Below are positions 34 through 15,533 of a stretch of DNA of 56,595 nucleotides, piece by piece. The DNA is taken from NCBI GenBank assembly GCA_947573405.1, contig CANPFW010000003.1, positions 1 through 56,595 of the forward strand, written 5' to 3'. The number at the start of each line of letters is the position of its first letter. Positions within the stretch are counted from its first letter, which is position 1. Position numbers and translations under genes: made by a program. Source of the stretch: an uncultured Clostridia bacterium (GTDB lineage Bacteria; Bacillota; Clostridia; Oscillospirales; CAG-272). The notes beneath the pieces were generated by a model, which was given only the letters and a program-made list of their open reading frames with translations, searched no databases and was not told where the DNA came from.

Positions 34-381
34 GAAAGTTTATATAGATAAAAGTTCCAGAAAGACTGAGACTATTTTTATTTCAAATAAAAATGCCAGT
101 AAATCCGCATGGTTTTTTACTCTTTATAATAAATCAAATTTTTATGAGCGATTGTGCTGTTAAAAGCCAACTAATGGCTATTTAAAGAATAATTTTTTAT
201 TGTATACTTATATTAAGGATTATAACACCAGAGAAAAGGATAATAAGACAATAACAGATTTACCAAATTATTATATCTGTGTGTGACCTGTTTTACAAAG
301 ATTTAAGTAAATATAAATTAAATAATGGCTTATTAGAATTTACTTGAATAAGTATAATAGTAAAATTTATTTGGAGTGCGA

Positions 382-1698
382 ATGGAAATACTTGAAATTG
401 TACCATTGCTTCCTTTGCAAAAAACAATGTTATATAAAATATTGTCTAATCCAAGTATTCCTGTATTTGGTGAGCAGTGGAGATATAAAGTAACCGGAAG
501 GATAGATGTTTCCTTGATAGAAAAAGCATGGCAGAAAACAATAAATAGTTATGATATTCTGCATGGCGTTTTTCAATGGGAACATAGAAAATCCCCTGTT
601 TTTCTGATCCTGAAAAGCGCCGTAAACAGATGTCAGATATATCATCTGGAGAATTTCAAAGAAGCTGATAAGACAAAGCAAGCCGATAGGATCGCATGGA
701 AGGAATACCACAATCCGGTCAATCTAAATGAATTACCTATAAGAATGACCATTACACTATTATCTGAAAATTGTTGTGAATGGATAATTACTTCTAACCA
801 TATTTTATTTGATGGTTGGAGTAATTCAATAATTATGAATAATTTCATTCATAATTATTTCACCCTATGCGATAATCGAAAAATACAGACACAAAGTAAA
901 GGGCAGGCGTATTCTGATTATGTTCGTTATGTCTATCAGGAACAGAATAATTCGCAGCATATAAATTATTGGAAAAATTATATAAACGGGTATATTTTCT
1001 CACAACCATATACTCGAAAACGAAAAAACGGGAATCGCATAGAGCAATTTCCATTAACGGAAAGTCAAATCCAAATGATTCAAAGATTTTGCCGGTTAAA
1101 TGGTTTTACATTATCTGTTGTCCTTTATACCATATGGGCATCCCTTCTATACATAGAAAATCCCCGAAAAACGATCATTATCGGCGCAACTGTATCCGGT
1201 CGCAACTTATTGCCATGTTCATATGACGATGTAGTGGGGTTGTTGGCAAAAACATTGCCTATGCAAATTAGTTTTGATAATAACTCAAGTATTGTAGATA
1301 TTATGACTGGAATTCGAACAGATTTAATAGATATAGAAGAACATATGCACGTAACCCCTGAAATTTGGCTTGATATACTTCCCAATATCCAAGAATGTTT
1401 TTCTGAAGGCTTAACGATCCAGAACTATCCGGTACAGGCATATAACAATAAAGGCGAAATTGATTTTCAGATAGAGTTTTACCAATCTAACTATTATACA
1501 GATATGGATTTTTCAATTTCAATAAAAACATTTATACAGCCCAATTCACTGGAGATTAACTACTCCGCCGACCGTTATTCATCAAAAATGGTACATCACC
1601 GGATAAATCTATATTTACATATTCTTCAAAGTCTTATACAACTTACACAATCGGAAATTAAAAATACGTGTATTATAAGCTGGCTAAAAAATTTATAA
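382..1698 (+). CDS. Free-standing NRPS condensation (C) domain protein
   Basis: Condensation core motifs are readable: LPLQKTMLY (C1), YDILHGVF (C2), SNHILFDGWS (C3 HHxxxDG with first His replaced by Asn), YSDYVRY (C4), VGLLAKTLP (C5). GGAG at 373-376 lies 5 nt before ATG 382; the ORF track starts at GTG 376. Confidence 0.8.
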   Translation: MEILEIVPLLPLQKTMLYKILSNPSIPVFGEQWRYKVTGRIDVSLIEKAWQKTINSYDILHGVFQWEHRKSPVFLILKSAVNRCQIYHLENFKEADKTKQADRIAWKEYHNPVNLNELPIRMTITLLSENCCEWIITSNHILFDGWSNSIIMNNFIHNYFTLCDNRKIQTQSKGQAYSDYVRYVYQEQNNSQHINYWKNYINGYIFSQPYTRKRKNGNRIEQFPLTESQIQMIQRFCRLNGFTLSVVLYTIWASLLYIENPRKTIIIGATVSGRNLLPCSYDDVVGLLAKTLPMQISFDNNSSIVDIMTGIRTDLIDIEEHMHVTPEIWLDILPNIQECFSEGLTIQNYPVQAYNNKGEIDFQIEFYQSNYYTDMDFSISIKTFIQPNSLEINYSADRYSSKMVHHRINLYLHILQSLIQLTQSEIKNTCIISWLKNL

Positions 1699-1704
1699 TG
1701 AAAA

Positions 1705-2778
1705 GTGGTAATAATTATTATTAAGTTTAGTGTTCCTGCGGATTTTAAAGAGAATACCCTGAAAAAGCTGAAATATATAAACAGCTTATCTGAAAACAAA
1801 AAAATTGTAGAAGTGTATGGTCAAATAACGACAGGTAACATACTGGCATCAGGAAGAAATCCTCAGGTTTTGCCGCAAGTTGATTTGAATGAATTAAAAG
1901 CATACATAAAACAATGTGATAAATACGGTTTTGAATTTAACTATACATTGAATGCATCCTGTATGGGGAATAAAGAATTTTCAGCAGATATGCGCCAATT
2001 TATCCTCACGCTGGATAGGATAGGGGTTTCATCTTATACGCTCTCTATACCATATTTATTTGATTTAGTAGCTGAAGTCTTGTCAGAAAATAAAATAAAA
2101 GCTTCTGCAATCTGTGAAATCAACAGTGTGATGAAAGCGAAGCATTACAAAGAATTGCCGATAACCCGTATTGTAGTCGATCCCGATATTACCAGACGTT
2201 TTGATATTTTACGGGGAATCTGTAATGAATTTGGAGAAAATGTTGAAATTATAGTCAACAATGCCTGTATACAAAATTGCCCATATAAGATGTTTCATTA
2301 CAACCATGAGGCTCATGGGGGATTAGAGCATTCAAATGAAATAAATAACCAGTATTATTATCATAAATGTTCGTTACAGAAAGCACAAACAGATTATAAT
2401 TTTATAAAAATAAACTGGATACGACCAGAAGATTTACATTACTATGTTGAAACCGGCATAACACGTTTCAAAATCCATGGAAGAAACTATATAAATTCCG
2501 ACAATCTTTTGAAGGTAACCGAAGCTTATTTTTCTGAAAAATTTGATGGAAATCTTATGGACTTGCTAACGCTCTTTCAGCCATATAATGCTTTTCAGCC
2601 ATATATTGACAATAAAAAGCTGGATGGATTTATTAAACGATTTTATGACTACCCACATGCTTGTAATGAAATATGCGAGGCTTGCGGACATTGTTTATCT
2701 TACGCAAAAAAAAGTATGGACATGGAAGCCGTACATACTGTTAATGATTATGCAAAACAGTTATATAAAAAAATTTAG
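1705..2778 (+). CDS. Divergent U32-family (PrtC/UbiU/UbiV/RlhA-like) putative Fe-S protein, paralog 1
   Basis: The overall U32 TIM-barrel pattern is present: FSVPADF, IVEVYGQ..SGR, DLNELKAYI, GFEFNYTLNAS, IIVNNACIQNC. Conserved Cys are shared with the next ORF, including C-terminal CNEICEACGHC. Confidence 0.55.
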   Translation: MVIIIIKFSVPADFKENTLKKLKYINSLSENKKIVEVYGQITTGNILASGRNPQVLPQVDLNELKAYIKQCDKYGFEFNYTLNASCMGNKEFSADMRQFILTLDRIGVSSYTLSIPYLFDLVAEVLSENKIKASAICEINSVMKAKHYKELPITRIVVDPDITRRFDILRGICNEFGENVEIIVNNACIQNCPYKMFHYNHEAHGGLEHSNEINNQYYYHKCSLQKAQTDYNFIKINWIRPEDLHYYVETGITRFKIHGRNYINSDNLLKVTEAYFSEKFDGNLMDLLTLFQPYNAFQPYIDNKKLDGFIKRFYDYPHACNEICEACGHCLSYAKKSMDMEAVHTVNDYAKQLYKKI

Positions 2779-2811
2779 CCTGTTGGCTTTATAAATATAA
2801 GGAAAAGCATT

Positions 2812-3927
2812 ATGAATTATTATAGTATTCCTTCGGATTTTAAAGTTGAAAGTGTAGAACGATATATTAAATTAAATCAACGCTGTGAGGATAAAATTAC
2901 AGAAGTATACGGTCAGCTTAACAGTACGGAAAATATATTTGGTTCTGGTAGAACGTCAAATCAATTGCCTGAAGTTACATATAATGAGCTTAAGAATTAT
3001 ATTTCTTTGTTATCGCGCAATGGCTTCAGCTTTAATTATACTTTCAATGCATCATGTTTATCAAATATGGAATTTACAAAAGATGGACAACAGAAAATTA
3101 TTACATTTCTCAATAGATTGATAGATGCAGGAGTGAATTCTGTAACAGTATGTATGCCGTCTCTTATAGAACTGATTCATGAATTGAATTTACCGATACG
3201 GATAAAAAGTTCTACAGTATGCGGTGTTACCAATGGTGAAAAAGCCCGGGCATATCGTTCTTTAGGCGTTAGTCGCTTAGTAGCGGATGAAAGTATCAAC
3301 CGGGATTTTACCGCTTTACGACAAATGGTACAGGTTTTTCCCGATGATCTTGAATTAATCGTTAATGTAATATGCGATAAAAACTGTATTTATCGACCCT
3401 TCCACCATAATCAGATGTCTCATGATTGTAAATATCTCGAAAAATCTACAAGCTATTATTCACATAGATGCAGTATGCACAGAGCGCAAACGCCAGAAAA
3501 TATACTTAAAATGAATTTTATTAGACCAGAAGATATTATACATTATGAAAATATTGGCATTCATCATTATAAAGTTCAGGGAAGACAAGCAGCAGAAAAT
3601 GGAGATATTTTAAGAACCGTTGAGGCATATATGATGAAAAGCTATGAGGGAGATCTCCTTGAACTGTTGGACTGCTTTTTGCCAACCAATTCATTTCGTG
3701 TGGAAATAGACAACAAAAGGTTGGATGGATTTCTATTACCTTTTTTACAGGATAATTTTTGTCAAAGAGATTGTAAGAATTGCAATTATTGTCTTTCGTT
3801 TTTTAAAAAATTTTTGCCTTATGATGAAATAGATCATATCAATCAGATTGCAAATGAATTTTATAAAGGTACTGATGAATTTAGCAGAGATATCATGGAA
3901 TGGAGTAATAAAATAAATGGAAAATGA
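2812..3927 (+). CDS. Divergent U32-family putative Fe-S protein, paralog 2
   Basis: Colinear with 1705-2778: YSIPSDF, ITEVYGQ..SGR, TYNELKNYI, GFSFNYTFNAS, LIVNVICDKNC, HRCS, C-terminal CQRDCKNCNYC. Confidence 0.55.
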   Translation: MNYYSIPSDFKVESVERYIKLNQRCEDKITEVYGQLNSTENIFGSGRTSNQLPEVTYNELKNYISLLSRNGFSFNYTFNASCLSNMEFTKDGQQKIITFLNRLIDAGVNSVTVCMPSLIELIHELNLPIRIKSSTVCGVTNGEKARAYRSLGVSRLVADESINRDFTALRQMVQVFPDDLELIVNVICDKNCIYRPFHHNQMSHDCKYLEKSTSYYSHRCSMHRAQTPENILKMNFIRPEDIIHYENIGIHHYKVQGRQAAENGDILRTVEAYMMKSYEGDLLELLDCFLPTNSFRVEIDNKRLDGFLLPFLQDNFCQRDCKNCNYCLSFFKKFLPYDEIDHINQIANEFYKGTDEFSRDIMEWSNKINGK

Positions 3928-6900
3928 TAGAGTACATACAGTGGGGGATATTATAGATACAAAATTACCAAAATGGACGATACAAGAACGAATGAAAGAA
4001 ATGGCAAAAATTCAAAAGGATAAACCAGCCATTATAACTTTTCTCAATCAAGAAACAGATACACAGATTAATCAACCGGCCGATTCAGATATTCAATGGA
4101 TTTGCTTTGTGGCGGATAGGTTTACTGTTGTACGCCGTTTAGAGCGTCAGTTTATGCTCTTATCACGAGAAAATGTTCGGGTTATCTTGGATCAGACAGC
4201 ATATGAGATTTATTCGCTTTTTAATGGGAACTTATCTGTATCGGAAATATATAGGCAATACGTTATTGGCGGGAAAGGCACATGGTCGTGTGAAACAGTC
4301 GATGTAGAATCGTCTGTATCAATAGAAAAGAATATAAATTGTCATATGGAATTTTCTGGTCTGAATGGTCTCGTAAACTTCGCGCTGTTTCTGCGGCAAC
4401 ATGGTTTCTTAGTTGTTCATAAAGTAAAAGTTACTGCAGACTACCCAAAATACGAATTTTCTGAATACGACATTACAGAATCGAAAGTCGAAACGGATCT
4501 GAGCCAAATCGAACCTTGTAAAGTTTTGTTATTAGGGGATAAGCCCGGAATGGCCACTGTGGGCATTTTATATTTAGCTTCATATCTGGTTCAAAATGGA
4601 ATTTCGGCCAAATGCCTGCTTATTAACAAAGAATATAGTTTTCAAAAGTTTCTGGACAACCTATTATTGATACTGAATAATATGCGACCATCATATGTAG
4701 CTATTAGCATGAAATGGTTTCCTCATATTGAGCGGGTGTATGAAATTTCAAGATTCGTAAAACAGTATCAAAAAGATATTCATATCATAGTGGGCGGGGA
4801 CACAGCATCTCATTATGCAAGGGAAGTAATTCAGGAACCGACAATAGATTACGTGATATGTGGTGATGGGGAAGACGCTTTGCTGCAAATATGTAAAGGG
4901 ATTGTGCCTGCACCAAATACTTACTATAAGAAAAATGGCGATGTACATACGCCTGATTCATACATTACAAACAGTGAAAAAAATGTATACTCTCTTTTAC
5001 CACCTGAAAAAATCATGATAGATCCCAAAATGCTTATGTATATTACGTTATATTTACCAACGTCTAAAGGGTGCATGCATGATTGTCTTCAATGTGGAGG
5101 AACTATGCATATTCAAAGGAAAAGTATGCACAGAAATCCTGGCTTATTTACACGACCAGCTCATATTGTAAGGCAGGATATTATTCAAACACAAAATCAT
5201 GTTGCATCTTATATGTTCAGCATTTGTGATACGGTTAGAGAGGATTTTTCTTACTTCGCGCTTATGTGGAAAGATTTAAATCTTTCAAATCATGTTTGCG
5301 CTCTGTTTAGTACATCAATAATCGATGAAAAAATTATTGATCTTGCCGCAAAGACTTTTTGTTATGTGCGTCTGGGTATCGACATGTGCAGTTTATCGGA
5401 GCGGCATAGAGAAAAAATTAACAATCATACAAACGGAAAAGAACAAATTAGCGATACAATGCTCTACAGTTTTTTAGATATATGTGAGCGGTATGATAAT
5501 TGTGAAGTTGATATTTATACGATAGCCGGTATGCCATTTTTTGAGGAGAGTGATATACAAGCTGAGAATGAGACAATAGATAAGCTGTTAAAGTACAGGT
5601 GTTTTAGAGGGATAGAGTGGGGACGTCTCCACGCTCAGCCAGGAGCCAAGTTGCTTGCAGGCGCTGAGCAGTATGGATTGAAGGCCGATGCTTGTGATTA
5701 TACGTCATTTCACCAATACAGCAGACTGAATCAGGCAAACAGTGACATCTATCCTGCAATGCCGTATTATCATTATCCCTATATTTCCTATGTAGATAGC
5801 GAGAAAAGCCGGCATGTTTATGGTCATTATTTTGAAATGAGTGAGAAATGTCGAAAGAACGCCCGAACTGTAAATCAAACAATCACAAAAGAAATCAGTT
5901 ATTATGATTTATATGCCCTTTCTTGTCAGATGGCAAAGGCACTGTTACACGCAGGGTTACAGTCACAGCAAAATGTAATTTTATATTTTAACGACCGTTT
6001 ATATTTATCAGTTGCTATATTATCTGTTATTCTGGCAGGAGGGTGCTATATCCCATTGGATCCAATGTTTCATGAAAATCTAATTGAGCATTTAGCTTCT
6101 GAAGATACTGTTTTTAAATTATTTACCGATGCTTCCATCTCATGCAATAAGCGGTTGGATTTTTGTGATTTGTTGCACAATAGCCATTCTGAAATGGTGT
6201 TGCCTGAAGGAAATGCCAGATTATTGCTCTATCGTATCTATTCCTCCGGTTCGACGGATACCCCAAAATGCATTGCAATACGGCAGGAGAGTGTTACGAA
6301 TTATACCAACTGGAGAATAGTTAATTATAATATTAGTGACCATGATGTGGTGCTGCAAATGCTGTCTGAAGCATTTGACGGCTTCGGATCTAATTTTTAT
6401 ACGACTTTGATGGCAGGCGGTTGCCTGGTTATGCCGACACCCAAGCAAAATCGAGATATCTCATTTATTAAGACGATTTGTAAGAAATATCAAATAACAC
6501 ATACCAGTTTGCTCCCATTTCAACTGGAAATGATAGTTCAGAATGATGTTGACGTCCTGAAGTCTTTTAAATCGGTAGTTGTGGCGGGAGAGACCTGTCA
6601 CGGAGATCTGCTTAAAAACATAAATCATTTTTATCCTGCATTAATTGTGATCAACGAATATGGTCCGACGGAATGTAGCATTGCAGTTACCGCGAATATC
6701 GGCTTGAATGAAGATTCCATATATAATATTGGTCGTCCGATTTCAAATGTAGAGGTGTCGCTTGTAAATGCGCAGGGACTTCCGGCATCAAATGGAGAAG
6801 CTGGTGAAATATGGATTACTGGATGCTGCTTGTTATCTGGCTATGGCTTTTCGGACAATACGGACTCTTCAGATATACCCAAGGTTTTCAAAACGAATGA

Positions 6901-6982
6901 CACAGCTCGCTATGACATCATTACAAAAGAACATATTATGTGCATATATTTGTTGAAAACACTTAGCTATCAAGCGTATTAG
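3917..6982 (+). CDS. Fusion protein: PqqD-like N-terminal segment + cobalamin-binding domain + radical SAM core + adenylation domain lacking its C-terminal subdomain
   Basis: PqqD-like segment at aa ~60-125 (ENVRVILDQTAYEIYSLFNGNLSVSEIYRQY). B12-binding-like segment at aa ~200-330 (KVLLLGDKPG...IIVGGDTAS...ICGDGEDAL). CxxxCxxC = CMHDCLQC at nt 5072-5095. Adenylation motifs: YSSGSTDTPK (A3), FDGFG (A4), NEYGPTE (A5), GEIWITGCCLLSGY (A6), FKTNDTARY (A7). No A8-A10 motifs before the stop. Overlaps the upstream gene by 11 nt. Confidence 0.7.
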   Translation: MENDRVHTVGDIIDTKLPKWTIQERMKEMAKIQKDKPAIITFLNQETDTQINQPADSDIQWICFVADRFTVVRRLERQFMLLSRENVRVILDQTAYEIYSLFNGNLSVSEIYRQYVIGGKGTWSCETVDVESSVSIEKNINCHMEFSGLNGLVNFALFLRQHGFLVVHKVKVTADYPKYEFSEYDITESKVETDLSQIEPCKVLLLGDKPGMATVGILYLASYLVQNGISAKCLLINKEYSFQKFLDNLLLILNNMRPSYVAISMKWFPHIERVYEISRFVKQYQKDIHIIVGGDTASHYAREVIQEPTIDYVICGDGEDALLQICKGIVPAPNTYYKKNGDVHTPDSYITNSEKNVYSLLPPEKIMIDPKMLMYITLYLPTSKGCMHDCLQCGGTMHIQRKSMHRNPGLFTRPAHIVRQDIIQTQNHVASYMFSICDTVREDFSYFALMWKDLNLSNHVCALFSTSIIDEKIIDLAAKTFCYVRLGIDMCSLSERHREKINNHTNGKEQISDTMLYSFLDICERYDNCEVDIYTIAGMPFFEESDIQAENETIDKLLKYRCFRGIEWGRLHAQPGAKLLAGAEQYGLKADACDYTSFHQYSRLNQANSDIYPAMPYYHYPYISYVDSEKSRHVYGHYFEMSEKCRKNARTVNQTITKEISYYDLYALSCQMAKALLHAGLQSQQNVILYFNDRLYLSVAILSVILAGGCYIPLDPMFHENLIEHLASEDTVFKLFTDASISCNKRLDFCDLLHNSHSEMVLPEGNARLLLYRIYSSGSTDTPKCIAIRQESVTNYTNWRIVNYNISDHDVVLQMLSEAFDGFGSNFYTTLMAGGCLVMPTPKQNRDISFIKTICKKYQITHTSLLPFQLEMIVQNDVDVLKSFKSVVVAGETCHGDLLKNINHFYPALIVINEYGPTECSIAVTANIGLNEDSIYNIGRPISNVEVSLVNAQGLPASNGEAGEIWITGCCLLSGYGFSDNTDSSDIPKVFKTNDTARYDIITKEHIMCIYLLKTLSYQAY

Positions 6983-6996: not shown

Positions 6997-8166
6997 TTAT
7001 TGTTCTAACTTATATTCATTTTTCAACAGATCTATATATAATGGAATATCATCAATTTTCGGATTTTCAAAATGGAAGCAATAGAAAGAGCAACTTCTGT
7101 ATTTTTCTCCATTGTGTGACCAGATTACTGTATGAGGGCATTGACCAGTTTGTTTTTTATATCTGTCAAAGACATCACAATCTTGACATTTCTTATTTTT
7201 CATATATTCAATAATTTGCGGTGGGAACTTATCAAATCTATCTTCACGCCCTTTAATTTTCAGAAAAAGGTTTAATACTAAGTAAGTTTTCATATCCTTC
7301 AGAATAATATTTCTATATTCAGGAACTGTATAATAACTGAGTTCTTCTTTCCATAAGTCATCTTCATATCGTATTTCTGCAAGTGCCTTTTTTTCTAAAT
7401 AATAATTACCTTTACGCTCACCTTTATATTCAACATTCGGAAATTTTTGCATATATTCATAAAAAGCTAAATAAAATTTTTTTGCTTCTTTATCCCAAGT
7501 ATAAATTTTATCGTTGACCCATACTATTTCCGGAAGTTGTGAAAGATCAACTAAATATTTATAATCCAGTGTATAGAAATTAAGCTTGAATTGATCTATA
7601 TTTTTAATAAATTTTTGCTGGTCCTCATTGATTTCCTTACAGCTGCAATATGTTTTCAGTGTGTTTATTAGTTTAGGATTTGATGGGAAAGAAACCTCTA
7701 ATAGACTCTCTTTTATTTTATTGTTATTATAGCCACTTATGGTAAAGCCAAACTCTATAAGTTTGTTGATTATCAAATAATAACGGGTTATTGCTTGTTT
7801 TTTGATCTGAGCGATGAACGACTGCCCGTCCGATATTAATGTATTGTTTTGTACTTTGCCTGAATCAAAAAGTGCATACAGAACGTCCAACAATCTATGT
7901 AGAGAGTTTCTCGATTCTCTGAGAGGCCCCCTCACGCATAAATGTATTGCATGGTTGTTTTGCTCATGAACATCTATCAATAGCAGCCCATAGTCTTCCG
8001 GATGTTCAGCCATATCGCAGTATATTTTTTTTATTAATTCGATTAAATCTCTAAAATCGTCAATAAAACTTTTGTCAAGACCTTTTTTTAGAGGCAATTC
8101 GTCAGGTAAAGGAAGAATTGAATTTACATATTCCAGCGCTTGATATTGTACATGATACTTGTACAT
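6997..8166 (-). CDS. Hypothetical protein with Cys-rich C-terminus, opposite strand to the cluster
   Basis: 389-aa intact ORF. AAGGAG lies 7 nt upstream of ATG 8166. C-terminal KCQDCDV...CPH...CSFYC. No family recognised. Confidence 0.5.
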   Translation of the reverse strand: MYKYHVQYQALEYVNSILPLPDELPLKKGLDKSFIDDFRDLIELIKKIYCDMAEHPEDYGLLLIDVHEQNNHAIHLCVRGPLRESRNSLHRLLDVLYALFDSGKVQNNTLISDGQSFIAQIKKQAITRYYLIINKLIEFGFTISGYNNNKIKESLLEVSFPSNPKLINTLKTYCSCKEINEDQQKFIKNIDQFKLNFYTLDYKYLVDLSQLPEIVWVNDKIYTWDKEAKKFYLAFYEYMQKFPNVEYKGERKGNYYLEKKALAEIRYEDDLWKEELSYYTVPEYRNIILKDMKTYLVLNLFLKIKGREDRFDKFPPQIIEYMKNKKCQDCDVFDRYKKQTGQCPHTVIWSHNGEKYRSCSFYCFHFENPKIDDIPLYIDLLKNEYKLEQ

Positions 8167-8407: not shown

Positions 8408-10069
8408 ATGGATAGAGATATAGCGATTATTGGTATATCGATATTGTTTCCCAAAGCAGAAACATTGGATACTTTATGGAGCGGATTTTATTCAAGAAAT
8501 TCCACAAAGCCGAAAATATTATACGGAAAAATATTGGCACTATGCTTTTCCGAATCGACCATATAATATACCACAGGTTGCATATATTGATGAAATAGAT
8601 CAATTTGATTATTCATATTTTAGATTATCAAAGCATGACGCTGATTATACGGATCCAGCTCATCGTCTGTTTTTACAAACTGCGGTCCGCTGTCTGGAAG
8701 ATGCCGGATATTTTAGCGAAAATATCAAAGGATCTGATACCGGAGTGTTTGTAGGGTACGGGGGAGATTTTGATTACACCCAGATGGTAGCCATGAAAGA
8801 TTGTGCTAATATGAAAACGCATTCCGTTGGATTGCTAGCATCCTTTATTACTTCTCGATTATCTTATTTGTATGATTTAAAGGGCCCTGCGATGGTAGTT
8901 GACACATCGTGTTCATCTTCTTTGGTCGCGTTACATTCTGCGTGTAACAGCATAAGAGCGGGAGAATGTACTATGGCTATAGTTGGTGGAGCACACCTGT
9001 ATACGGTACCAGTGTTAAGAGGTGGGCTTGGAGTACAATCTTCTGACTGCCGAACACGATCCTTTGATGATAGTGCAGATGGTACAGGTTCGGGAGAAGG
9101 CGTGTGTGCCATATTAATAAAAAAAGCAAGGGAAGCATATAAAGACGGGGATCATATTTACGCTGTTATCAAAGGGAGCGCTGTTGTTAGTGATGGAAAT
9201 GCGGCCGGAATCGCCAGCCCAAACCTTATGGCGCAAAAGCTGACAATTCAAAAGGCTTGGGAAGATGCGAATATTGATCCTTGTACAATTTCGTATGTTG
9301 AGGCTCATGGCACGGGGACACGTATTGGCGACCCCATTGAGTTAAAAGCATTGTCTGAAGCCTTTTCAGATTACAGCAGTAATAGGGGCTTTTGTGCTGT
9401 TAGTTCAATAAAATCCAACATGGGTCACTTAGGATATTGTGCAGGCCTGGCAGGTTTAGTAAAAGCTGTTCTTCAATTAAAGCATCAGACTATTGTTTCT
9501 ACTGCTCATTTTCATAAGTTGAACAAGAATATAACTTTGGATAAAAGTGCGATATATATCAGCAAGGAAAATAAACTCACAGACAAGTTTAATTCCCTCA
9601 AATTACGATATTATTTGTGCAAATTATGTTGCGGGAGAGAATTATGATTGGAAGAAATTATACCCTGATAAAGTTAATCGGGTTTCATTACCCGGGACAA
9701 CACTACAAACGACAAAGTGCTGGTTATCATTCTCTGATCAATTAACCGAGACGAATGATACAACAGGAACTGATAACTGTCCTTTTCAATTTTTTCAATC
9801 GCTTGTACAAGACAAATGTCAAGATCCAATATTAATAGATCATTTAATTCTTTTGTGGATATTTAGAAATCAGATTGGTAATCAGGAGCTTCAGTCCGGT
9901 GATAATTTGTATGATATGGGTGCCGATTCTATCACGGCACTTCAAATACTGCGATATATTAACCAAATTTATAATTTTAACGCCGGATGAATTTTTGCTT
10001 TACCAATCAGTTGATGAAGTAGCGACTCTCATATATAAGTATAGAAAAGAAACGTTTGTGGAGAAATAG
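8408..10069 (+). pseudogene. Type I PKS-like ketosynthase plus carrier protein, disrupted by at least three frame changes and an apparent internal deletion
   Basis: ATG 8408 with AGGAG RBS gives MDRDIAIIGISILFPKAETLDTLW, then the frame shifts into ORF 8430-9647. That ORF has VDTSCSSSL active-site Cys, EAHGTGT and KSNMGHL. ORF 9547-9990 has ANYVAGENYDWKKLY and carrier motif GADSITALQ. ORF 9875-10069 has the carrier C-terminus LTPDEFLLYQSVDEVATLI. Confidence 0.7.
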
Positions 10070-11184: not shown

Positions 11185-11526
11185 GTGCCTCAAAAGGATC
11201 TTTTTCAGGTTTATGAAAAAGCAAAAGTTATGGCCTTTCCTTCAATAAGTCATGAAACGTTCGGCATGAGTGGTGCGGAAGCCGTAGCAGCAGGAATTCC
11301 TGTGGTAGCTTTTCAAATCGATGGAATAGGTGAATGGCTTCAGGATGGCATTAATGGTCGTATAGTTAAACAGGGTGATATCGGCGCCTATGCTGCTGCT
11401 TTGAATGAGATACTGACAGATGATAACATTTATAACTCTTATCATGAAAACGCAATGAAATGGCGTGCGGATCTGGATTATCCTGGGCAGGTATCCTCGC
11501 TATGCAATATGTATCTAACATTATAA
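11185..11526 (+). pseudogene. C-terminal third of a GT1/GT4-type glycosyltransferase (N-terminal ~250 aa missing)
   Basis: VPQKDLFQVYEKAKVMAFPSISHETFGMSGAEAVAAGIPVV contains the EX7E motif. The same frame reads GLVDKITFLDH upstream to a TAA at 11140-11142. There is no room for the N-terminal Rossmann domain. Confidence 0.65.
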
Positions 11527-11533
11527 AAGCTTT

Positions 11534-12316
11534 ATGAAAAATAATTATTTTAATATGCAGCAGCCGAAGTATAAGATATCCATACCAGGTTCGAGGATCA
11601 TGGTGATTGCTCCGCATCCTGATGATGAGGTTATTGGTTGCGGCGGGACTATTTTAAAGGGATTGAATCAACAGGTATTTGACATTGTTTATATTACAAA
11701 TGGTGAAAAAGGCTTTGTTTCAGAACATGCTGGAACTGCAGAAATCAGAATACAAGAAGCTGTAAATAATTGGAATTCTTATAATAACATTCACTTGCAT
11801 TTTATAGGTTTAAAAGATTCTGACATTATCTGTGATCTGGATTCTATTAGAAAAATAGGTGAAGTTATTCTGACAAATCAGCCGGATTGTATTTTGCTGC
11901 CAGATGTAACAGATCATAATATTGACCATCTTGCTTGTAATTTACTTATACACGAGGCATTGCTGCTCTTTTCATACACACATATATTAATTTGGGGATA
12001 TGAAGTTTGGTCAGCAATTAATCCGGATATTGTAGTTAATATTACAGAGTATTACCAGGGAAAATGTCAAATGATTCATAATTATATATCACAGTTTCAA
12101 CAGTTTGACTATGAAACCCTTTTTACACTCAATAATAAACGTACGGCTATTTATGGAGTTTTATTCGCAGATAATACACATAATGTGCATCGAGTCGAAC
12201 AGAAACAACGCATGAAAAAGAATCTGCCCTTTACCAGAGAGTGGCTTTATGCAGAAGGGTTTCGCAGATATACATTTTCAGAGCATGCTAAAGAATTGTC
12301 CGATAAATTGAAATGA
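11534..12316 (+). CDS. PIG-L/LmbE family deacetylase
   Basis: VIAPHPDDEVIGCGGT and HNIDH motifs; 260 aa, intact. Confidence 0.8.
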   Translation: MKNNYFNMQQPKYKISIPGSRIMVIAPHPDDEVIGCGGTILKGLNQQVFDIVYITNGEKGFVSEHAGTAEIRIQEAVNNWNSYNNIHLHFIGLKDSDIICDLDSIRKIGEVILTNQPDCILLPDVTDHNIDHLACNLLIHEALLLFSYTHILIWGYEVWSAINPDIVVNITEYYQGKCQMIHNYISQFQQFDYETLFTLNNKRTAIYGVLFADNTHNVHRVEQKQRMKKNLPFTREWLYAEGFRRYTFSEHAKELSDKLK

Positions 12317-12334
12317 TTATAGGGGAGGATTCAA

Positions 12335-13162
12335 ATGCGACAGTATAGAGATATAACAATATTAGGGAGATGCAACCTATCTTGTCAATATTGTGATCAT
12401 CCTGATTTCAGTGTGTGTGAAAATCAAGTGATCCAATCCTTGGACGTTATAATGAAACGTTTTGAACGAGACAAAATGTGTTTTCGTATTGAGTCTAGGG
12501 GGGAGATAACCTTATACCCTCATATCATTAATCATATTAAGAATTATGCTGATAAAGGATATCGACTGGAATTGCTTAGCAATGGTCTGCTGATTGACGA
12601 TGTCCTGAATGATTATAAAAAAATAGGTTGTGTTATATCTTTGGATGGTCATACAACTAAGATGAATGAGATGCGGGGTTTGTCACAGTCTCAGGTGAAT
12701 CGGATTTTAAATAACATTTTTAAATATGATGCAGATATTCAGATGGTTTATTTGAATCAAAGTGCAGAAGAAATTAATGCTTTTATCCGATTCCTTCAGG
12801 ACAATCACTTTAAAGGACTGTTGCACATATTTCCGTGTTCATTAAAAAACAAAAATATGTCAAAGTGCTTGTCTTACGATGATTTAATCCACACTGAATT
12901 TATTCCGCCTAAAGAATATTTTGAACGCTGGAAATACATATACGAAAATAATTCACGAAATTTTATTTGTGATTTTTATAAAAATGGATATATATATTAT
13001 ATATTTAACCGTAATATAAAAATGGCAAAGTGTGATGGAAACGCATCGATTTGGAGAATATTGCACCCACTTGGTAATGAGCGGAATGTTTCCATTGACT
13101 GTCTGAATTGCATTAATAATAATGAATTTAATAATCAAAGAAAATTTGTTGCATTAAATTAA
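12335..13162 (+). CDS. Small radical SAM enzyme with C-terminal Cys cluster (BtrN/twitch-like size)
   Basis: GRCNLSCQYCDH (CxxxCxxC), RGEITLYP (GGE-like SAM motif), C-terminal CDGN...CLNC; 275 aa. Confidence 0.75.
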   Translation: MRQYRDITILGRCNLSCQYCDHPDFSVCENQVIQSLDVIMKRFERDKMCFRIESRGEITLYPHIINHIKNYADKGYRLELLSNGLLIDDVLNDYKKIGCVISLDGHTTKMNEMRGLSQSQVNRILNNIFKYDADIQMVYLNQSAEEINAFIRFLQDNHFKGLLHIFPCSLKNKNMSKCLSYDDLIHTEFIPPKEYFERWKYIYENNSRNFICDFYKNGYIYYIFNRNIKMAKCDGNASIWRILHPLGNERNVSIDCLNCINNNEFNNQRKFVALN

Positions 13163-13174
13163 TGGGTATATGAA

Positions 13175-14521
13175 TTGCTGATTTTATTATATGATAAAGT
13201 TGAGGTGATGAATCCACTGAGCCGATTTATAAATGATTTGATGCAGGATATCTGGAAAAATGAATCCGTCAGGTTCAAAAAGTTATATGAATATTATATG
13301 AACATGCCTGAAAAACAAATAACTGCATTGTTAGAAAGTAATAAAGCGCTGGTATATGAAAACGATGGAAATAATATGACTAGCTTAATTACTTGTGGTT
13401 GTCAGCATTTTTATTCCAATTTTTCAATTGCCGGATGCAGCATGTGTAACTTACACCGTAAATCTGTTGAAACAGCTGCTGCTTTAACCGCGTTGCGTGA
13501 TAGAAATCGCTGTAAATATTCAGAAATGGTTTGCAAAAGCTTTACAAATGCACGAGGAGTTGTTCAGTCACGAACTATACACGAATATTTATTTAGCTAC
13601 GATTTTTTAAATCCAATGGAAATCCCTGATGAATGCTTGGAAATGCTGTTATCTGGAGAGGGGGGAGTTTTCAGCAGGAAGCCATGGATTTATGAGTTTG
13701 AGACAACGGCACGTAGCATTAGCAAGGTAAGGTTGAAATTACTCAAGCGTTATGTGGGAAATAGAGATATTATTATACGTATTGGAGTTGAATGTGCGGA
13801 TGAATTTATTCGAAATGAATGGCTGAACAAAAATTTATTTAATCAGCAAATAATAGATGCAATTTCTTTATGTCATGAAGAAGGAATCAAGATAACAGGC
13901 AATATTTTACTGGGTATTCCAGGGTTTACAGAAGAACTCAGTATAAATCAGTTTATTGATACGGTTCATTGGCTTTTTAGCTGCAACATGGATTATATAT
14001 CCTGTTCCTTACTTAGCCGGACAGAGAAGTCTTTCCAGGGATTTCTTCATAGTTCCCTAAAAAATAATGATGTATTGCAAAAATATGGTTTAGCTTATAT
14101 GGAACATACCGGACTGCCATGGTTATTTTCCTTAGTTCGAGCTATCCACCAATTATATAATAGTGAACCGGAAACGCTAAAAAAAATATTTTTCGGGCAA
14201 TTTATTGACAGCTATATTGAACAATCCCATAGCCCTGCTTTCAATCAAACGAGAGAATGTTCTTGCGTAAAAGAATTTAATCAAATTTTGACATTAGGTA
14301 AATTGCCAGACGATTGGAGAAACATACACTTTTTTGCTGATTATAAGGCAGATCCTTGTTATCCTTATTATATGAATTTGTGTGAGCGGCAAAATCAAAT
14401 ATCTAATGTTATGGATAATATGAGGATTTTATCAAAAGAAGTCATTGATAAAAAATGGGGTGAAGGAGACCGGCGATTATATGATTTTAATATGAATTTA
14501 AAGAATCATTATTTTGAATGA
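13175..14521 (+). CDS. Radical SAM superfamily protein with non-canonical cluster motif (Elp3/TIGR01210-01212-like)
   Basis: CGCQHFYSNFSIAGCSMCNL (C-x11-C-x2-C) and IRIGVECADEFIRNEWLNKN...ITGNILLGIPGFTEE, typical of the rSAM barrel. The start is uncertain (TTG 13175 or ATG 13208). Confidence 0.5.
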   Translation: MLILLYDKVEVMNPLSRFINDLMQDIWKNESVRFKKLYEYYMNMPEKQITALLESNKALVYENDGNNMTSLITCGCQHFYSNFSIAGCSMCNLHRKSVETAAALTALRDRNRCKYSEMVCKSFTNARGVVQSRTIHEYLFSYDFLNPMEIPDECLEMLLSGEGGVFSRKPWIYEFETTARSISKVRLKLLKRYVGNRDIIIRIGVECADEFIRNEWLNKNLFNQQIIDAISLCHEEGIKITGNILLGIPGFTEELSINQFIDTVHWLFSCNMDYISCSLLSRTEKSFQGFLHSSLKNNDVLQKYGLAYMEHTGLPWLFSLVRAIHQLYNSEPETLKKIFFGQFIDSYIEQSHSPAFNQTRECSCVKEFNQILTLGKLPDDWRNIHFFADYKADPCYPYYMNLCERQNQISNVMDNMRILSKEVIDKKWGEGDRRLYDFNMNLKNHYFE

Positions 14522-14531: not shown

Positions 14532-15143
14532 ATGTGTTTTGACGATATTACCAATTTATTTAACGTAAAGAAATATACATATGAATTAACATTATCGGAA
14601 AATAATATACCCGAAGTATGCAGAAAGCAACTCCTTATGCCTATGCATGATCTTAATGGAACGCAATATTAATTTTATATAAATTTGGAAAATCATTACG
14701 TTACGCTTTGGAGTGTTGATACTAAAAAGTTTGTTAATTTTTCATGTTCATACTTAAAGCAATATGAAATGAAGAAACAACTTATGTATGGTAGAATCAA
14801 TATTCACAATCTGATAAAAAATAATAACAAGATATATGCTTTACCGGACTTTGCAAATTTTATTTGGTGTTTTGACTTATTTAATGATGGTTTCACAGTC
14901 GCTTGTGAAAGCTTCGATCATATCTATGGATTATCCAATACTATTTATAACGATGCTATTTACTATTCAGCATCTCGCCATAATGATCAAGTGATTAAAA
15001 ATCCTAATAGAGAAATAATCAGGAACCAGATTGCCTGCTTACATTTTCTCTTTCAGGGGATGCATCCAAAATTGCAGTTTTTGTTCTTCGTCTTTTTGGG
15101 CATAGAAATCGCTTGTCTGAAAAATGGCGTGGTGAATGATTAA
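14532..15143 (+). pseudogene. Hypothetical ORF interrupted by an in-frame TAA (14670-14672); alternatively a 46-codon ORF plus a separate 152-aa ORF
   Basis: GAGGA lies 7 nt upstream of ATG 14532. The 46 codons (MCFDDITNLF...NGTQY) are in the same frame as ORF 14685-15143, which only has a TTG start. Confidence 0.35.
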
Positions 15144-15353
15144 TGCATTAAAAATCTAGTGGATTCCGGTTTGACAATGGCTTTTGTAATCCCGAATTGC
15201 AGAAAAAGGCACTTGCCGTATCCTTTTTGAAATCAGGAAAAACAATTTGATATTAGCAAACACGTTAGCAGGTCAGAAAAGTAAAAGGAAATGAGGTAAA
15301 AATAGGATGAAACAAAACAAGCCGAATCCACAGCATGGTAACGGCTTGTTTGC

Positions 15354-15387
15354 AAAAAAAATCACGCAGTTTTAAAAACTGCGTGAT
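15354..15387 (-). terminator. Rho-independent terminator of tRNA-Arg (followed by a second hairpin at 15313-15352)
   Basis: Minus strand: stem atcacgcag/ctgcgtgat then a run of 7-8 U, 11 nt after the tRNA CCA end. Confidence 0.6.
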
Positions 15388-15398
15388 TTCAATGAATT

Positions 15399-15474
15399 TG
15401 GCGCGCCCTAGAGGATTTGAACCTCTGACCTACCGGTTCGTAGCCGGGCACTCTATCCGCTGAGCTAAGGGCGC
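15399..15474 (-). tRNA. tRNA-Arg (anticodon ACG), CCA encoded
   Basis: The reverse complement folds as a cloverleaf. Acceptor GCGCCCT/AGGGCGC, D arm GCTC-AGCGGATA-GAGT, anticodon loop CTACGAA, T arm AGAGG-TTCAAAT-CCTCT, discriminator G, CCA. Confidence 0.9.
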
Positions 15475-15504
15475 ATATTTTCGACCTCACCTGTTGACTA
15501 ATAT

Positions 15505-15533
15505 ATGATAGCACATTTATATGCGGTTGTCAA
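15505..15533 (-). promoter_or_regulatory. Sigma-70-type promoter for tRNA-Arg
   Basis: Minus strand: TTGACA, 17 nt spacer, TATCAT, about 30 nt upstream of the tRNA 5' end. Confidence 0.55.

What the first reader, a model, noticed from the sequence alone, without database searches (positions are those of the whole stretch)
1705..3927. Tandem divergent U32-family paralogs with eight conserved cysteines (UbiU/UbiV-style pair inside a biosynthetic cluster)
The two ORFs are colinear over their whole length.

Shared conserved cysteines:
- NASC(M/L).
- A C-x3-C (CIQNC / CDKNC).
- H(K/R)CS.
- A C-terminal C-x3-C-x2-C-x2-C (CNEICEACGHC / CQRDCKNCNYC).

That is enough for two Fe-S clusters per subunit.

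Established knowledge: the U32 members UbiU and UbiV form a heterodimer. Each subunit binds a 4Fe-4S cluster, and the pair carries out O2-independent hydroxylation. RlhA and TrhP are related RNA hydroxylation factors.

Inference: a duplicated U32 pair embedded in a secondary-metabolite cluster of an anaerobe could be an anaerobic hydroxylase for a natural product.

The extra C-terminal Cys motif and the C-x3-C spacing differ from the classical U32 signature as I remember it. This may be a distinct subfamily, or the family call may be wrong.
Basis: partly seen in the sequence, partly recalled or inferred. Interest (0 to 1): 0.7.

Follow-up and report, generated by a model that had tools for sequence, protein, structure and literature searches.

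The report
NRPS-embedded iron-sulfur U32 enzyme pair
Two neighbouring genes on a mouse-gut Clostridiales contig belong to an apparently undescribed, cysteine-rich branch of the U32 "oxygen-free hydroxylase" family that sits inside non-ribosomal peptide assembly lines of anaerobes, where it most likely modifies (probably hydroxylates) a tyrosine-like building block without O2.

Summary
ORF-A (1705-2778) and ORF-B (2812-3927) are 40% identical paralogues. Both pass Pfam Peptidase_U32, and both fold (pLDDT about 94) into a TIM barrel whose best PDB match is the U32 structure 5D88.

The family lacks the classical U32 signature and CX6CX15CX3/4C motif. It has E-x-I-x-N-x2-CX3C, a distal Cys, and an extra C-terminal CX3-5CX2-3CX2C.

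In 50 of 58 non-redundant core loci the genes lie co-directionally inside NRPS/PKS genes. They often follow a stand-alone condensation domain and usually precede an A domain with the near-invariant code DG[SAT]S[VI]AE[IV]xK. From memory this is Tyr-like; the exceptions include Tyr and Phe codes.

Distant members are fused or adjacent to chorismate mutase, DAHP synthase, chorismatase or SCP2 domains.

Best reading: an O2-independent, probably prephenate-dependent Fe-S tailoring enzyme for an aromatic NRPS building block. The heterodimer, the Fe-S content and the chemistry remain untested, and paired genes are common but not obligatory. I found no paper describing this. The window's own cluster copy is partly deleted.

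The parts
376..1698 (+). Stand-alone NRPS condensation (C) domain gene. It ends 6 nt before ORF-A. Its active-site motif NHILFDGWS keeps the catalytic His.
   Evidence: Pfam Condensation, E 6e-50. A stand-alone C gene lies directly upstream of a family U32 in 21 of 58 non-redundant core loci, always with [HN]HxxxDGWS intact.
1705..2778 (+). ORF-A, the clade-a U32 paralogue (357 aa). Conserved Cys: C86, C137, C188, C192, C222 and C320/C324/C327/C330.
   Evidence: Pfam PF01136, 28.1 bits. 450 homologues. Falls in clade a of the NJ tree. AF2 pLDDT 93.6, pTM 0.92. Foldseek top hit 5D88, E 3.5e-9. Cys conservation.
2812..3927 (+). ORF-B, the clade-b U32 paralogue (371 aa). Conserved Cys: C82, C137, C188, C192, C220 and C317/C321/C324/C327. 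Its stop overlaps the start of the next gene by 11 nt.
   Evidence: Pfam PF01136, 40.9 bits. 182 homologues. AF2 pLDDT 93.9, pTM 0.92. Foldseek top hit 5D88, E 2.5e-9, target-normalised TM 0.74. hhalign against E. coli U32 proteins 97%. Gene overlap.
3917..6982 (+). NRPS module gene: unknown N-terminal region, B12-binding radical-SAM domain, then an adenylation domain with code DGSSVAEIA-. In this window it is truncated: the end of the A domain and the PCP are missing. Intact relatives are 1189 aa with a PCP.
   Evidence: Pfam B12-binding and AMP-binding; NCBIfam TIGR04190 and TIGR01733. Stachelhaus code. Relative L004 carries the 1189-aa version with PP-binding. Deletion mapped.
6997..8166 (-). 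Conserved 389-aa gene of unknown function inside the cluster, with a Cys-rich C-terminus.
   Evidence: No significant Pfam or NCBIfam hit. Present at the same place in L004-L006.
8430..9990 (+). Remnant of a KS-ACP polyketide module gene, split into two ORFs by deletions. Relatives carry an intact 689-aa gene.
   Evidence: Pfam ketoacyl-synt plus Ketoacyl-synt_C. Deletions of 17 bp, 368 bp and 5 bp relative to L004. Other mouse-gut runs carry the 17-bp and 5-bp stretches.
11185..14521 (+). Probable further tailoring genes in the low-GC island: a glycosyltransferase fragment, a PIG-L/LmbE-type deacetylase (11534-12316) and two radical-SAM genes (12335-13162, 13175-14521).
   Evidence: Pfam PIG-L and Radical_SAM. 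PIG-L and GT genes recur in other family loci, for example between U32a and U32b in L017. GC is 32-36% up to about 15 kb and 44-51% beyond.

Best explanation
ORF-A and ORF-B are two paralogous members of a distinct branch of the U32 superfamily that is dedicated to NRPS assembly lines.

**Predicted architecture (inferred).** Each is a TIM-barrel protein predicted to carry two Fe-S sites.
- One site sits at the catalytic face of the barrel. Its ligands would be C188 and C192 (the shortened counterpart of the U32 CX6C), C220/C222 and probably C82/C86.
- The second site would be held by the extra C-terminal CX3CX2CX2C and would act as an electron relay.

**Proposed role (inferred).** They act with the stand-alone C domain and with the module encoded immediately downstream, whose A domain has the near-invariant, Tyr-like code DG[SAT]S[VI]AE[IV]xK. 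The enzymes would modify the aromatic amino-acid building block without O2.

The most likely chemistry is ring hydroxylation, phenol to catechol (Tyr to a DOPA-type residue). That is the same chemistry UbiU/UbiV perform on prenylphenols, with prephenate as the hydroxyl donor and the clusters carrying away two electrons.

The two paralogues either form a UbiU/UbiV- or TrhP1/TrhP2-like heterodimer or catalyse two successive modifications.

**Shown:** homology, fold, Cys conservation, genomic association, and links to chorismate-pathway genes.
**Inferred:** Fe-S content, substrate, hydroxylation, prephenate use, and the dimer.
For: **Family and fold**
- Pfam hits above the gathering cut-off.
- hhalign 97% against E. 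coli UbiU, UbiV, TrhP and RlhA. ORF-B E181 aligns to TrhP E162, and the Cys motif starts right after the aligned block.
- TrhP E162, C170 and C177 (RlhA E161, C169, C176) are essential in vivo (PMC6599085).
- Both AF2 models are confident, and 5D88 is the top PDB match for each.

**Cysteines**
- Seven Cys are invariant. The eighth is 100% Cys in clade a and Cys or His in clade b, a ligand-like substitution.

**Genomic context**
- 50 of 58 non-redundant core loci lie co-directionally inside NRPS/PKS genes.
- 21 of 58 follow a stand-alone C gene.
- 30 of 58 have an A domain with the DG[SAT]..AE code, normally encoded by the next gene.
- The A domains next to the U32 genes that lack this code include Tyr (DASTIAAVCK) and Phe (DAWTIAAVCK, DGWTIAAICN) codes.

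**Shikimate and prephenate links within the family**
- P0335 is a single polypeptide of chorismate-binding, chorismate mutase and U32 domains, with a GATase gene upstream.
- L072 has the same genes unfused.
- DAHP synthase occurs in 6 loci and lies directly upstream of U32a in L055 and L059.
- FkbO/Hyg5 chorismatase plus DAHP synthase lie beside the U32 gene in L065.
- L073 has three U32 genes, one fused to SCP2 domains, resembling UbiT.

**Published background**
- Prephenate is the O donor for UbiU/V and is required for TrhP and RlhA (PMC10990095; PMC6599085).

**Habitat and expression**
- The host is a mouse-gut Clostridiales MAG, so the habitat is anoxic.
- The operon appears in RNA-labelled libraries.
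Against: - No biochemical data exist for any member.
- The classical CX6CX15CX3/4C motif and PROSITE-type signature are absent in all 240 core members, so transfer of function from UbiU/V is across about 11-17% identity.
- Assigning the A-domain code to Tyr rests on my memory of the Bacillus Tyr code DGTITAEVAK. It could not be confirmed in the paper library.
- No chorismate mutase or prephenate gene is found in most NRPS loci. Cellular prephenate would have to serve.
- Even for UbiU/V, TrhP and RlhA, direct hydroxylase activity has not been reconstituted in vitro.
- Many clusters hold only one copy, so a heterodimer is not general.
- In this window the downstream module lacks its PCP and the KS gene is broken, so this copy may be non-functional.
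Confidence: 0.5

Rival explanations
1. The pair are Fe-S (possibly radical) enzymes of the NRPS pathway that catalyse something other than hydroxylation. Candidates include dehydrogenation or desaturation of the Tyr-like residue, aryl cross-linking, or SAM-dependent radical chemistry using the C-terminal CX3CX2C as a non-canonical radical-SAM site. ThiC, a TIM barrel with a C-terminal cluster motif, is the precedent I recall from memory.
For: - Both window ORFs carry an exact CX3CX2C within the C-terminal motif.
- U32 proteins and radical-SAM enzymes share a barrel fold (review PMC11574389).
- The loci are rich in radical-SAM genes.
- The Cys architecture differs from that of the proven hydroxylation-linked U32 proteins.
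Against: - Across the wider family the C-terminal spacing varies (CX3-5CX2-3CX2C, for example 38 representatives with CX4CX2CX2C). The radical-SAM spacing is therefore not the conserved feature.
- There is no Pfam Radical_SAM hit.
- No radical-SAM structure appears among the top 50 Foldseek hits shown.
- The chorismate-mutase fusion and the DAHP synthase and chorismatase neighbours point to prephenate-type chemistry.
Confidence: 0.22
2. The enzymes use a prephenate-type cyclohexadienyl acid as their substrate rather than as an O donor. They would convert it into the unusual aromatic or dihydro-aromatic amino-acid precursor that the DG[SAT]..AE-code A domain then loads, acting as an Fe-S analogue of prephenate dehydratase or dehydrogenase, or of PapC.
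For: - P0335 and L072 couple GATase, a chorismate-binding enzyme and chorismate mutase to the U32 domain. From memory, this resembles the PapA/PapB steps that make 4-amino-4-deoxyprephenate.
- DAHP synthase and chorismatase are neighbours in other loci.
- The A-domain code is conserved but differs from standard Tyr codes.
- Class-III aminotransferases occur in 5 loci.
Against: - Most NRPS loci have no chorismate-pathway gene.
- When the neighbouring A domain lacks the DG[SAT]..AE code it often carries a plain Tyr or Phe code. That fits modification of a normal amino acid better than a de novo precursor.
- Known U32 biology uses prephenate as a co-substrate.
Confidence: 0.15
3. They are true U32 peptidases ('collagenase-like PrtC proteases', as some sources annotate them) that mature or activate the peptide product.
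For: The family name and the JGI/NCBI annotations of homologues. Peptidases do occur in some NRPS clusters for prodrug activation (general knowledge).
Against: - Seven or eight invariant Cys in Fe-S-like arrays.
- Conservation of the Glu/Cys/Cys triad needed for hydroxylation-linked U32 function.
- Tight operon position between the C and A-PCP genes.
- Chorismate-pathway fusions.
- Peptidase activity is undocumented for most U32 members (PMC6747719; PMC11574389).
Confidence: 0.03

Closest known systems
UbiU/UbiV (E. coli YhbU/YhbV), O2-independent ubiquinone hydroxylation
   Same: - U32 superfamily.
- Two adjacent paralogous genes.
- Conserved Cys after the barrel strand carrying the essential Glu.
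- Aromatic (phenolic) substrate.
- Link to the shikimate/prephenate pathway. Some distant family members even have an SCP2 fusion resembling UbiT.
   Different: - Only 11-12% identity and no NCBIfam hit.
- CX3C instead of CX6C, a different third and fourth ligand spacing, and an extra C-terminal 4-Cys motif.
- NRPS context instead of ubi genes.
- The pair is not obligatory, whereas ubiU and ubiV co-occur in 99% of genomes (PMC6747719).
TrhP (YegQ), RlhA (YdcP) and the B. subtilis TrhP1/TrhP2 (YrrO/YrrN) RNA C5-hydroxylation factors
   Same: - U32 domain. hhalign aligns ORF-B 55-186 with TrhP 43-167.
- The essential Glu and first two Cys have invariant counterparts.
- TrhP1/TrhP2 is another tandem U32 pair in which both genes are needed.
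   Different: - Their substrates are RNA.
- They carry a U32 C-terminal or DUF3656-type domain and the CX6CX15CX3C motif.
- None of 240 core members of the present family match that motif.
Mk0906 (PDB 5D88), U32 domain structure from Methanopyrus kandleri
   Same: Best structural match of both AF2 models (E 2.5e-9 and 3.5e-9; target-normalised TM 0.74 and 0.67). It is also the only significant PDB sequence hit.
   Different: It covers only about 250 residues of barrel at 13-14% identity, has no C-terminal Cys domain, and has no known function.
O2-dependent NRPS building-block hydroxylases of aerobes (P450, non-haem Fe/2OG and di-iron enzymes, haem SfmD; from memory)
   Same: Proposed role: a trans-acting tailoring enzyme encoded next to the module that loads the modified amino acid. 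The stand-alone C domain may play a recruiting role, as 'interface' or X domains do (from memory).
   Different: Unrelated folds and cofactors, and all need O2 or H2O2. The U32 pair would be the anaerobic functional counterpart.

Membership tests
Peptidase_U32 superfamily (Pfam PF01136) | Profile match above Pfam's gathering score | tested here: met
   ORF-A scores 28.1 bits and ORF-B 40.9 bits against a cut-off of 22.4. All listed homologues carry PF01136. hhalign against E. coli U32 proteins gives 97%, E 1e-10.
Peptidase_U32 superfamily (Pfam PF01136) | (beta/alpha)8 barrel like the only solved U32 structure, 5D88 | tested here: met
   AF2 pLDDT 93.9 and 93.6, pTM 0.92 for both. Foldseek's top hit is 5D88 for both models, and the remaining hits are generic TIM barrels.
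Fe-S 'U32 oxidases' (UbiU, UbiV, TrhP, RlhA type) | PROSITE-type signature E-x-F-x2-G-[SA]-[LIVM]-C-x4-G-x-C-x-[LIVM]-S (pattern recalled from memory) and the CX6CX15CX3/4C four-Cys motif | tested here: not met
   None of 240 core members, nor ORF-A or ORF-B, match. The positive controls UbiU, TrhP and RlhA match the signature. The family instead has E-x-[IVLF]-x-N-x2-C-x3-C in 238 of 240.
Fe-S 'U32 oxidases' (UbiU, UbiV, TrhP, RlhA type) | Conserved Glu plus the first two Cys of the motif (essential in TrhP and RlhA) | tested here: met
   E181, C188 and C192 are invariant in 242 sequences. E181 aligns to TrhP E162. Essentiality is from PMC6599085.
Fe-S 'U32 oxidases' (UbiU, UbiV, TrhP, RlhA type) | Binds a [4Fe-4S] cluster through four Cys | not testable with these tools
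   Eight conserved Cys are available. Model coordinates are not exposed, so Cys-Cys distances could not be measured. This needs anaerobic purification with UV-vis, EPR and Fe/S analysis.
Fe-S 'U32 oxidases' (UbiU, UbiV, TrhP, RlhA type) | Prephenate-dependent, O2-independent hydroxylation | not testable with these tools
   Indirect evidence only: a chorismate-mutase fusion (P0335), and DAHP synthase and chorismatase neighbours.
UbiU/UbiV orthologues | Match to the UbiU/UbiV protein families, an obligate adjacent pair, a UbiT (SCP2) partner, and ubiquinone-producing hosts | tested here: not met
   - No NCBIfam hit at E <= 0.1.
- 11-12% identity.
- No SCP2 gene in the window or in the NRPS loci; only the distant L073 has one.
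- Only 14 of 58 core loci have two copies within 10 kb.
- The hosts are Clostridia.
UbiU/UbiV-style heterodimer | Physical complex of the two paralogues | not testable with these tools
- In the linker-fusion alignment all homologues aligned to one half.
- Genomic evidence is mixed: two ancient clades that often sit adjacent, but singletons are frequent.
Radical SAM superfamily | CX3CX2C cluster motif conserved across the family, plus a Radical_SAM profile match | tested here: not met
   - No PF04055 hit at E <= 0.1.
- CX3CX2C is present in the window ORFs, but the spacing varies across the family, CX3-5CX2-3CX2C.
- The motif is C-terminal, not after beta-strand 1.

The most novel reading that the evidence does not exclude
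This U32 branch may be a general family of O2-independent 'group-transfer' enzymes. They would use cyclohexadienyl acids from the shikimate pathway to functionalise aromatic rings of soluble small molecules.
- With prephenate they would deliver OH to Tyr-like NRPS building blocks. That would be the first U32 oxidase in secondary metabolism and the first with a simple soluble substrate.
- In the GATase, chorismate-binding, chorismate-mutase and U32 branch (P0335, L072) they might deliver an amino group from 4-amino-4-deoxyprephenate.

The extra C-terminal 4-Cys cluster would be the built-in electron outlet that the canonical U32 proteins lack.
Probability: 0.12. Interest if true: 0.9.

Novelty: new variant of a known kind. 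Interest (0 to 1): 0.68.

Why it matters
**An open question in anaerobe natural products.** Aerobes decorate NRPS building blocks with P450, Fe/2OG or di-iron oxygenases, all of which need O2. How strict anaerobes obtain hydroxylated residues is largely unknown. A U32 family dedicated to NRPS lines would be a direct candidate. It occurs in gut Clostridia, Paenibacillus, Bacteroidales, Aminicenantes, KSB1 and others.

**A tractable assay for the U32 field.** The field still lacks any in vitro reconstitution. Both PMC10990095 and PMC6599085 say that direct hydroxylase activity has not been demonstrated. One reason is that the known substrates are membrane-bound prenylphenols or ribosomal and transfer RNA. 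A member acting on a free or PCP-bound amino acid would provide a soluble assay for the proposed prephenate-as-O-donor chemistry.

**Use in genome mining.** The motif set (E-x-I-x-N-x2-CX3C plus C-terminal CX3-5CX2-3CX2C) and the partner A-domain code give a handle for a class of anaerobe peptide products with modified aromatic residues. Close relatives of these proteins are currently annotated only as 'hypothetical protein' or 'collagenase-like protease'.

Tried and rejected
1. **Heterodimer modelling.** A linker-fusion alignment was built (A4), but MAFFT placed all homologues on the ORF-B half, so it would have given a one-sided MSA. I did not submit it.

2. **Measuring Cys-Cys distances.** Model coordinates are not exposed to the Python sandbox. 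Only topology could be used. C82, C137, C188 and C192 all follow beta-strands, so they lie on the catalytic face of the barrel.

3. **Confirming the Tyr assignment of the A-domain code.** Full-text searches for DGTITAEVAK, DGTITAEV, DGSSVAE and similar strings returned nothing. The assignment stays a memory-based lead. Column calibration on EntF did reproduce DVWHFSLVDK.

4. **Literature on U32 proteins in NRPS clusters.** Five searches found only the UbiU/V, TrhP and RlhA papers and the Balskus-lab review. None describes this family. Subscription-only papers are not covered.

5. **NCBIfam.** No family matches either ORF.

6. **Radical-SAM reading of the C-terminal CX3CX2C.** Downgraded, because the spacing is not conserved family-wide and there is no rSAM profile or fold match.

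7. **Protease reading.** Rejected as unlikely; see the rival explanations.

8. **A universal accessory gene (ferredoxin, chorismate mutase, SCP2) in the NRPS loci.** All-vs-all clustering of neighbours found none that is general. The most frequent partners are the C domain, B12-radical-SAM genes, KS, carrier proteins, trans-AT and ABC transporters.
Full report
**1. The observation**

The window carries two co-directional ORFs at exactly the stated coordinates: ORF-A at 1705-2778 (357 aa) and ORF-B at 2812-3927 (371 aa). They are colinear paralogues, with 40% identity over 355 residues and E 7e-91.

They sit in a tightly packed operon:
- A stand-alone condensation-domain gene ends 6 nt before ORF-A.
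- ORF-B has its own AAGGA ribosome-binding site.
- ORF-B's stop overlaps the start of the next gene.

In an alignment of 242 family members with mean identity about 50%:
- C188, C192, C222/220 and the four C-terminal Cys are 100% conserved.
- The NASC Cys (C86/82) is 88% conserved.

By clade, C86 is invariant in clade a. In clade b the equivalent residue is Cys in 76% and His in 15% of sequences. Cys-to-His is the kind of substitution tolerated at a metal ligand.

**2. Family and fold**

Evidence for U32 membership:
- Both ORFs pass the Pfam Peptidase_U32 gathering score (28.1 and 40.9 bits against 22.4).
- No NCBIfam model matches.
- The only PDB sequence relative is the Methanopyrus U32 domain 5D88.
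- A profile of the family aligns to a profile of E. coli UbiU, UbiV, TrhP and RlhA with 97% probability (E 1e-10). The aligned block covers ORF-B residues 55-186 and ends at the strand 'ELIVNV', which corresponds to TrhP 'EIFVHG'.
- The Glu and the two following Cys of that motif are essential in TrhP and RlhA (PMC6599085). Their counterparts here, E181, C188 and C192, are invariant.
- AlphaFold2 models of both proteins are confident (pLDDT 93.9 and 93.6, pTM 0.92). For both, Foldseek ranks 5D88 first (E 2.5e-9 and 3.5e-9), ahead of generic TIM barrels.

The family is nevertheless clearly divergent:
- None of 240 core members match the PROSITE-type U32 signature or the CX6CX12-16CX3-4C motif. 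Pelosi et al. found that motif in eight of ten U32 families (PMC6747719).
- 238 of 240 core members have E-x-[IVLF]-x-N-x2-C-x3-C.
- The C-terminal motif is CX3CX2CX2C in the core clade and CX3-5CX2-3CX2C in the wider family. It has no counterpart in the canonical proteins.

A profile search of 1.84 billion cluster representatives gave 778 hits at E < 1e-30 and 2935 at E < 1e-3. This is a sizeable branch, not an oddity.

**3. Two clades, often but not always paired**

A neighbour-joining tree of 242 sequences splits cleanly into clade a (with ORF-A) and clade b (with ORF-B). Each half was drawn from a separate top-120 hit list, so the even split is partly by construction.

Many contigs carry one member of each clade. 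The two clades share 59 columns that are at least 90% conserved and differ by only three fixed substitutions. Neither looks like a pseudo-enzyme.

After collapsing near-identical loci, only 14 of 58 core loci have two copies within 10 kb. In some other cases the partner lies 17-41 kb away on the same contig. Many clusters, including those of isolates, show a single copy within the 10-kb flanks examined, mostly clade b.

Tandem U32 pairs have precedents: UbiU/UbiV form a heterodimer, and TrhP1 and TrhP2 are both required. Here, however, a heterodimer is at most one option. I could not model it.

**4. Genomic context**

I scanned one genome per species and obtained 70 loci. The hosts include Clostridia, Paenibacillus, Pseudobacteroides, Ruminiclostridium, Alkaliphilus, Bacteroidales, Victivallales/Pontiella, Aminicenantes, KSB1, Armatimonadota and others. 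I mapped neighbouring genes with HMMs iterated from the window's own domains.

Among the 58 non-redundant core loci:

| Feature within 10 kb | Loci |
|---|---|
| NRPS/PKS domains, almost always co-directional | 50 of 58 |
| Stand-alone C gene directly upstream, with [HN]HxxxDGWS intact | 21 of 58 |
| A domain with the DG[SAT]..AE code | 30 of 58 |
| Two U32 copies | 14 of 58 |

The recurrent layouts are 'C | U32a | U32b | C-A-PCP...' and 'C | U32b | (rSAM-)A-PCP'. Four independent look-ups with precomputed Pfam annotation gave the same picture. B12-radical-SAM genes are the next most frequent neighbours, present in 39 loci.

**5. The partner adenylation domain**

I extracted Stachelhaus codes from an HMM alignment. 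The columns were calibrated on E. coli EntF, which reproduced the textbook Ser code DVWHFSLVDK.

The A domain nearest the U32 genes is normally encoded by the next gene. It carries a nearly invariant code, DG[SAT]S[VI]AE[IV]xK, for example DGSSVAEIAK in the window's relatives. This code recurs across phyla.

From memory, it is closest to the Bacillus-type Tyr code DGTITAEVAK. I could not verify this in the paper library. Where the neighbouring A domain lacks this code, it includes the standard Tyr (DASTIAAVCK) and Phe (DAWTIAAVCK, DGWTIAAICN) codes.

This points to a phenolic or aromatic amino acid as the residue handled by the U32 plus C plus A-PCP cassette.

**6. Links to the shikimate pathway**

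- One family member, P0335, is a single 924-aa polypeptide. It combines Anth_synt_I_N, Chorismate_bind, chorismate mutase (CM_2) and a U32 domain of this family (257 bits). A GATase gene lies upstream.
- L072 has the same genes unfused.
- DAHP synthase occurs in six loci and lies directly upstream of U32a in L055 and L059.
- In Lacrimispora amygdalina (L065), the U32 gene sits beside an FkbO/Hyg5-type chorismatase, DAHP synthase and a double GNAT.
- In an Aminicenantes locus (L073), three U32 paralogues occur together, one of them fused to two SCP2 domains. That domain type is found in UbiT.

Prephenate is the demonstrated O donor for UbiU/V-dependent hydroxylation and is required for TrhP and RlhA (PMC10990095; PMC6599085). 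These fusions therefore tie the new branch to the same co-substrate logic, or to aromatic substrates.

**7. Proposed mechanism (inference)**

The barrel would carry a [4Fe-4S] cluster on C188, C192, C220/222 and C82/86. These residues all lie just after beta-strands or in the following helix, on the catalytic face of the barrel. The C-terminal four Cys would bind a second cluster acting as an electron outlet.

Following the published proposal for UbiU/V, the steps would be:
- The phenol ring of Tyr, either free or carried on the PCP, is oxidised by two electrons.
- Decarboxylation of prephenate delivers hydroxide to the oxidised ring.
- The products are a catechol (DOPA-type) residue and phenylpyruvate.

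P0335 lacks the C82 and C137 equivalents but keeps the other seven Cys. An alternative arrangement is therefore three Cys plus an open Fe site. The rival explanations are listed in their own section.

**8. State of this particular copy**

The window is an entire 56,595-bp contig of a Clostridiales MAG. The locus is common in mouse-gut metagenomes.

Compared with a 99.6%-identical relative (L004), the window differs as follows:
- It lacks 2.4 kb, which removes the end of the A domain, the PCP and a 538-aa B12-rSAM gene.
- It has 17-bp, 368-bp and 5-bp deletions in the KS-ACP gene.

The C, U32a and U32b genes are intact.

The deletion junction is present in a contig of one low-depth run. Three other runs carry the longer version. 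This is either a decaying strain variant or a low-coverage assembly artefact.

RNA-labelled mouse-gut libraries contain contigs across the C/U32a and U32a/U32b boundaries at low depth. This suggests transcription, but DNA carry-over cannot be excluded.

**9. Novelty**

Five full-text searches and targeted reading of four papers found no description of NRPS-associated U32 proteins, of this Cys architecture, or of the chorismate-mutase fusion. A 2024 review states that most U32 subfamilies are uncharacterised and that motifs separating oxidases from peptidases are needed. Subscription-only literature was not searchable.

I rate it a new variant of a known kind. The superfamily and its general chemistry are known. 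The cofactor architecture, the biological context (secondary metabolism) and the probable substrate class are new.

Noticed in passing
window 6920-6950, 8471-8477, 9575, 9982 (compared with L004 14110-16512 and 19162-19529): The window's cluster copy is damaged relative to a 99.6%-identical relative. A 2.4-kb deletion removes the end of the A domain, the PCP and a B12-rSAM gene, and the KS-ACP gene has 17-bp, 368-bp and 5-bp deletions. The junction is seen in one low-depth run (X1), while three other mouse-gut runs carry the intact version. This is a strain variant or an assembly artefact.
   Followed up: partly
window about 15000-16000: Sharp GC shift, from 32-36% in the NRPS/PKS island to 44-51% in the rest of the contig. 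The rest is housekeeping: V-type ATPase operon, PNPase, HtrA-like protease, VanY and ABC transporters. This suggests a horizontally acquired island or a chimeric MAG contig.
   Followed up: partly
window 3917-6982; L014, L035, L040, L041, L069: B12-binding radical-SAM domains are built into NRPS modules. They occur as N-terminal-region, rSAM, A, PCP in place of a C domain; as C, N-terminal-region, rSAM, A, PCP; and as rSAM domains inserted inside A domains (A-rSAM-rSAM-A), in the way methyltransferase domains interrupt A domains. The 190-aa N-terminal region has no Pfam match.
   Followed up: partly
P0335 / L081 3179-5953; L072 593-3861: A Rosetta-stone fusion: Anth_synt_I_N, Chorismate_bind, chorismate mutase (CM_2) and a U32 domain of this family in one 924-aa protein, with a GATase gene upstream. 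The same genes are unfused in L072. The arrangement resembles PapA/PapB, so 4-amino-4-deoxyprephenate is a possible ligand.
   Followed up: partly
L073 9920-17009 (Aminicenantes MAG): Three distant U32 paralogues lie in one locus among radical-SAM genes. The third (772 aa) is fused to two SCP2 domains, reminiscent of UbiT plus UbiU plus UbiV. It may be an anaerobic lipid or quinone modification system.
   Followed up: partly
L065 6083-15506 (Lacrimispora amygdalina); L063; L067: A non-NRPS context for clade-a-like members: U32 plus a double-GNAT acetyltransferase, next to an FkbO/Hyg5 chorismatase, DAHP synthase, DUF6070 and an agr-type quorum-sensing set (AgrB, histidine kinase, LytTR regulator). 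This may be a small chorismate-derived, quorum-regulated metabolite pathway.
   Followed up: partly
window 2706: Other strains (runs X28 and X30, and L005) lack one base here, just after the last conserved Cys of ORF-A. This gives a 362-aa variant with a different C-terminal tail, so the tail beyond the Cys motif seems dispensable.
   Followed up: partly
window 33629-35345: An ABC transporter appears split into two overlapping ORFs: ABC_membrane (338 aa) and ABC_tran (292 aa). This is a possible frameshift or pseudogene, consistent with some decay or sequence errors in this contig.
   Followed up: no
window 6997-8166 (- strand): A 389-aa gene conserved within the cluster (also in L004-L006), with no family match and a Cys-rich C-terminus (…CQDCDVF…CPH…CSFYC…). 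Function unknown.
   Followed up: no
L011/L012 7484-8581, L024, L030, L031: A DUF362 plus 2x[4Fe-4S] ferredoxin-domain gene recurs near the C/U32 genes in five loci. It is a candidate electron partner for the U32 or radical-SAM enzymes.
   Followed up: no
P0311, P0317, P0331, P0385; P0303, P0322: Wider-family members carry extra C-terminal domains. Proteins of 474-511 aa have DUF2621. Proteins of 686-735 aa have an unknown C-terminal half ending in a C-x2-C-x3-P-L-C-x-G-H motif.
   Followed up: no
window 1705-3927 (public annotation): Near-identical proteins in NCBI are annotated only as 'hypothetical protein [Clostridiales bacterium]'. More distant homologues are labelled 'collagenase-like PrtC family protease', 'protease' or 'U32 family peptidase'. 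These names are probably misleading.
   Followed up: yes
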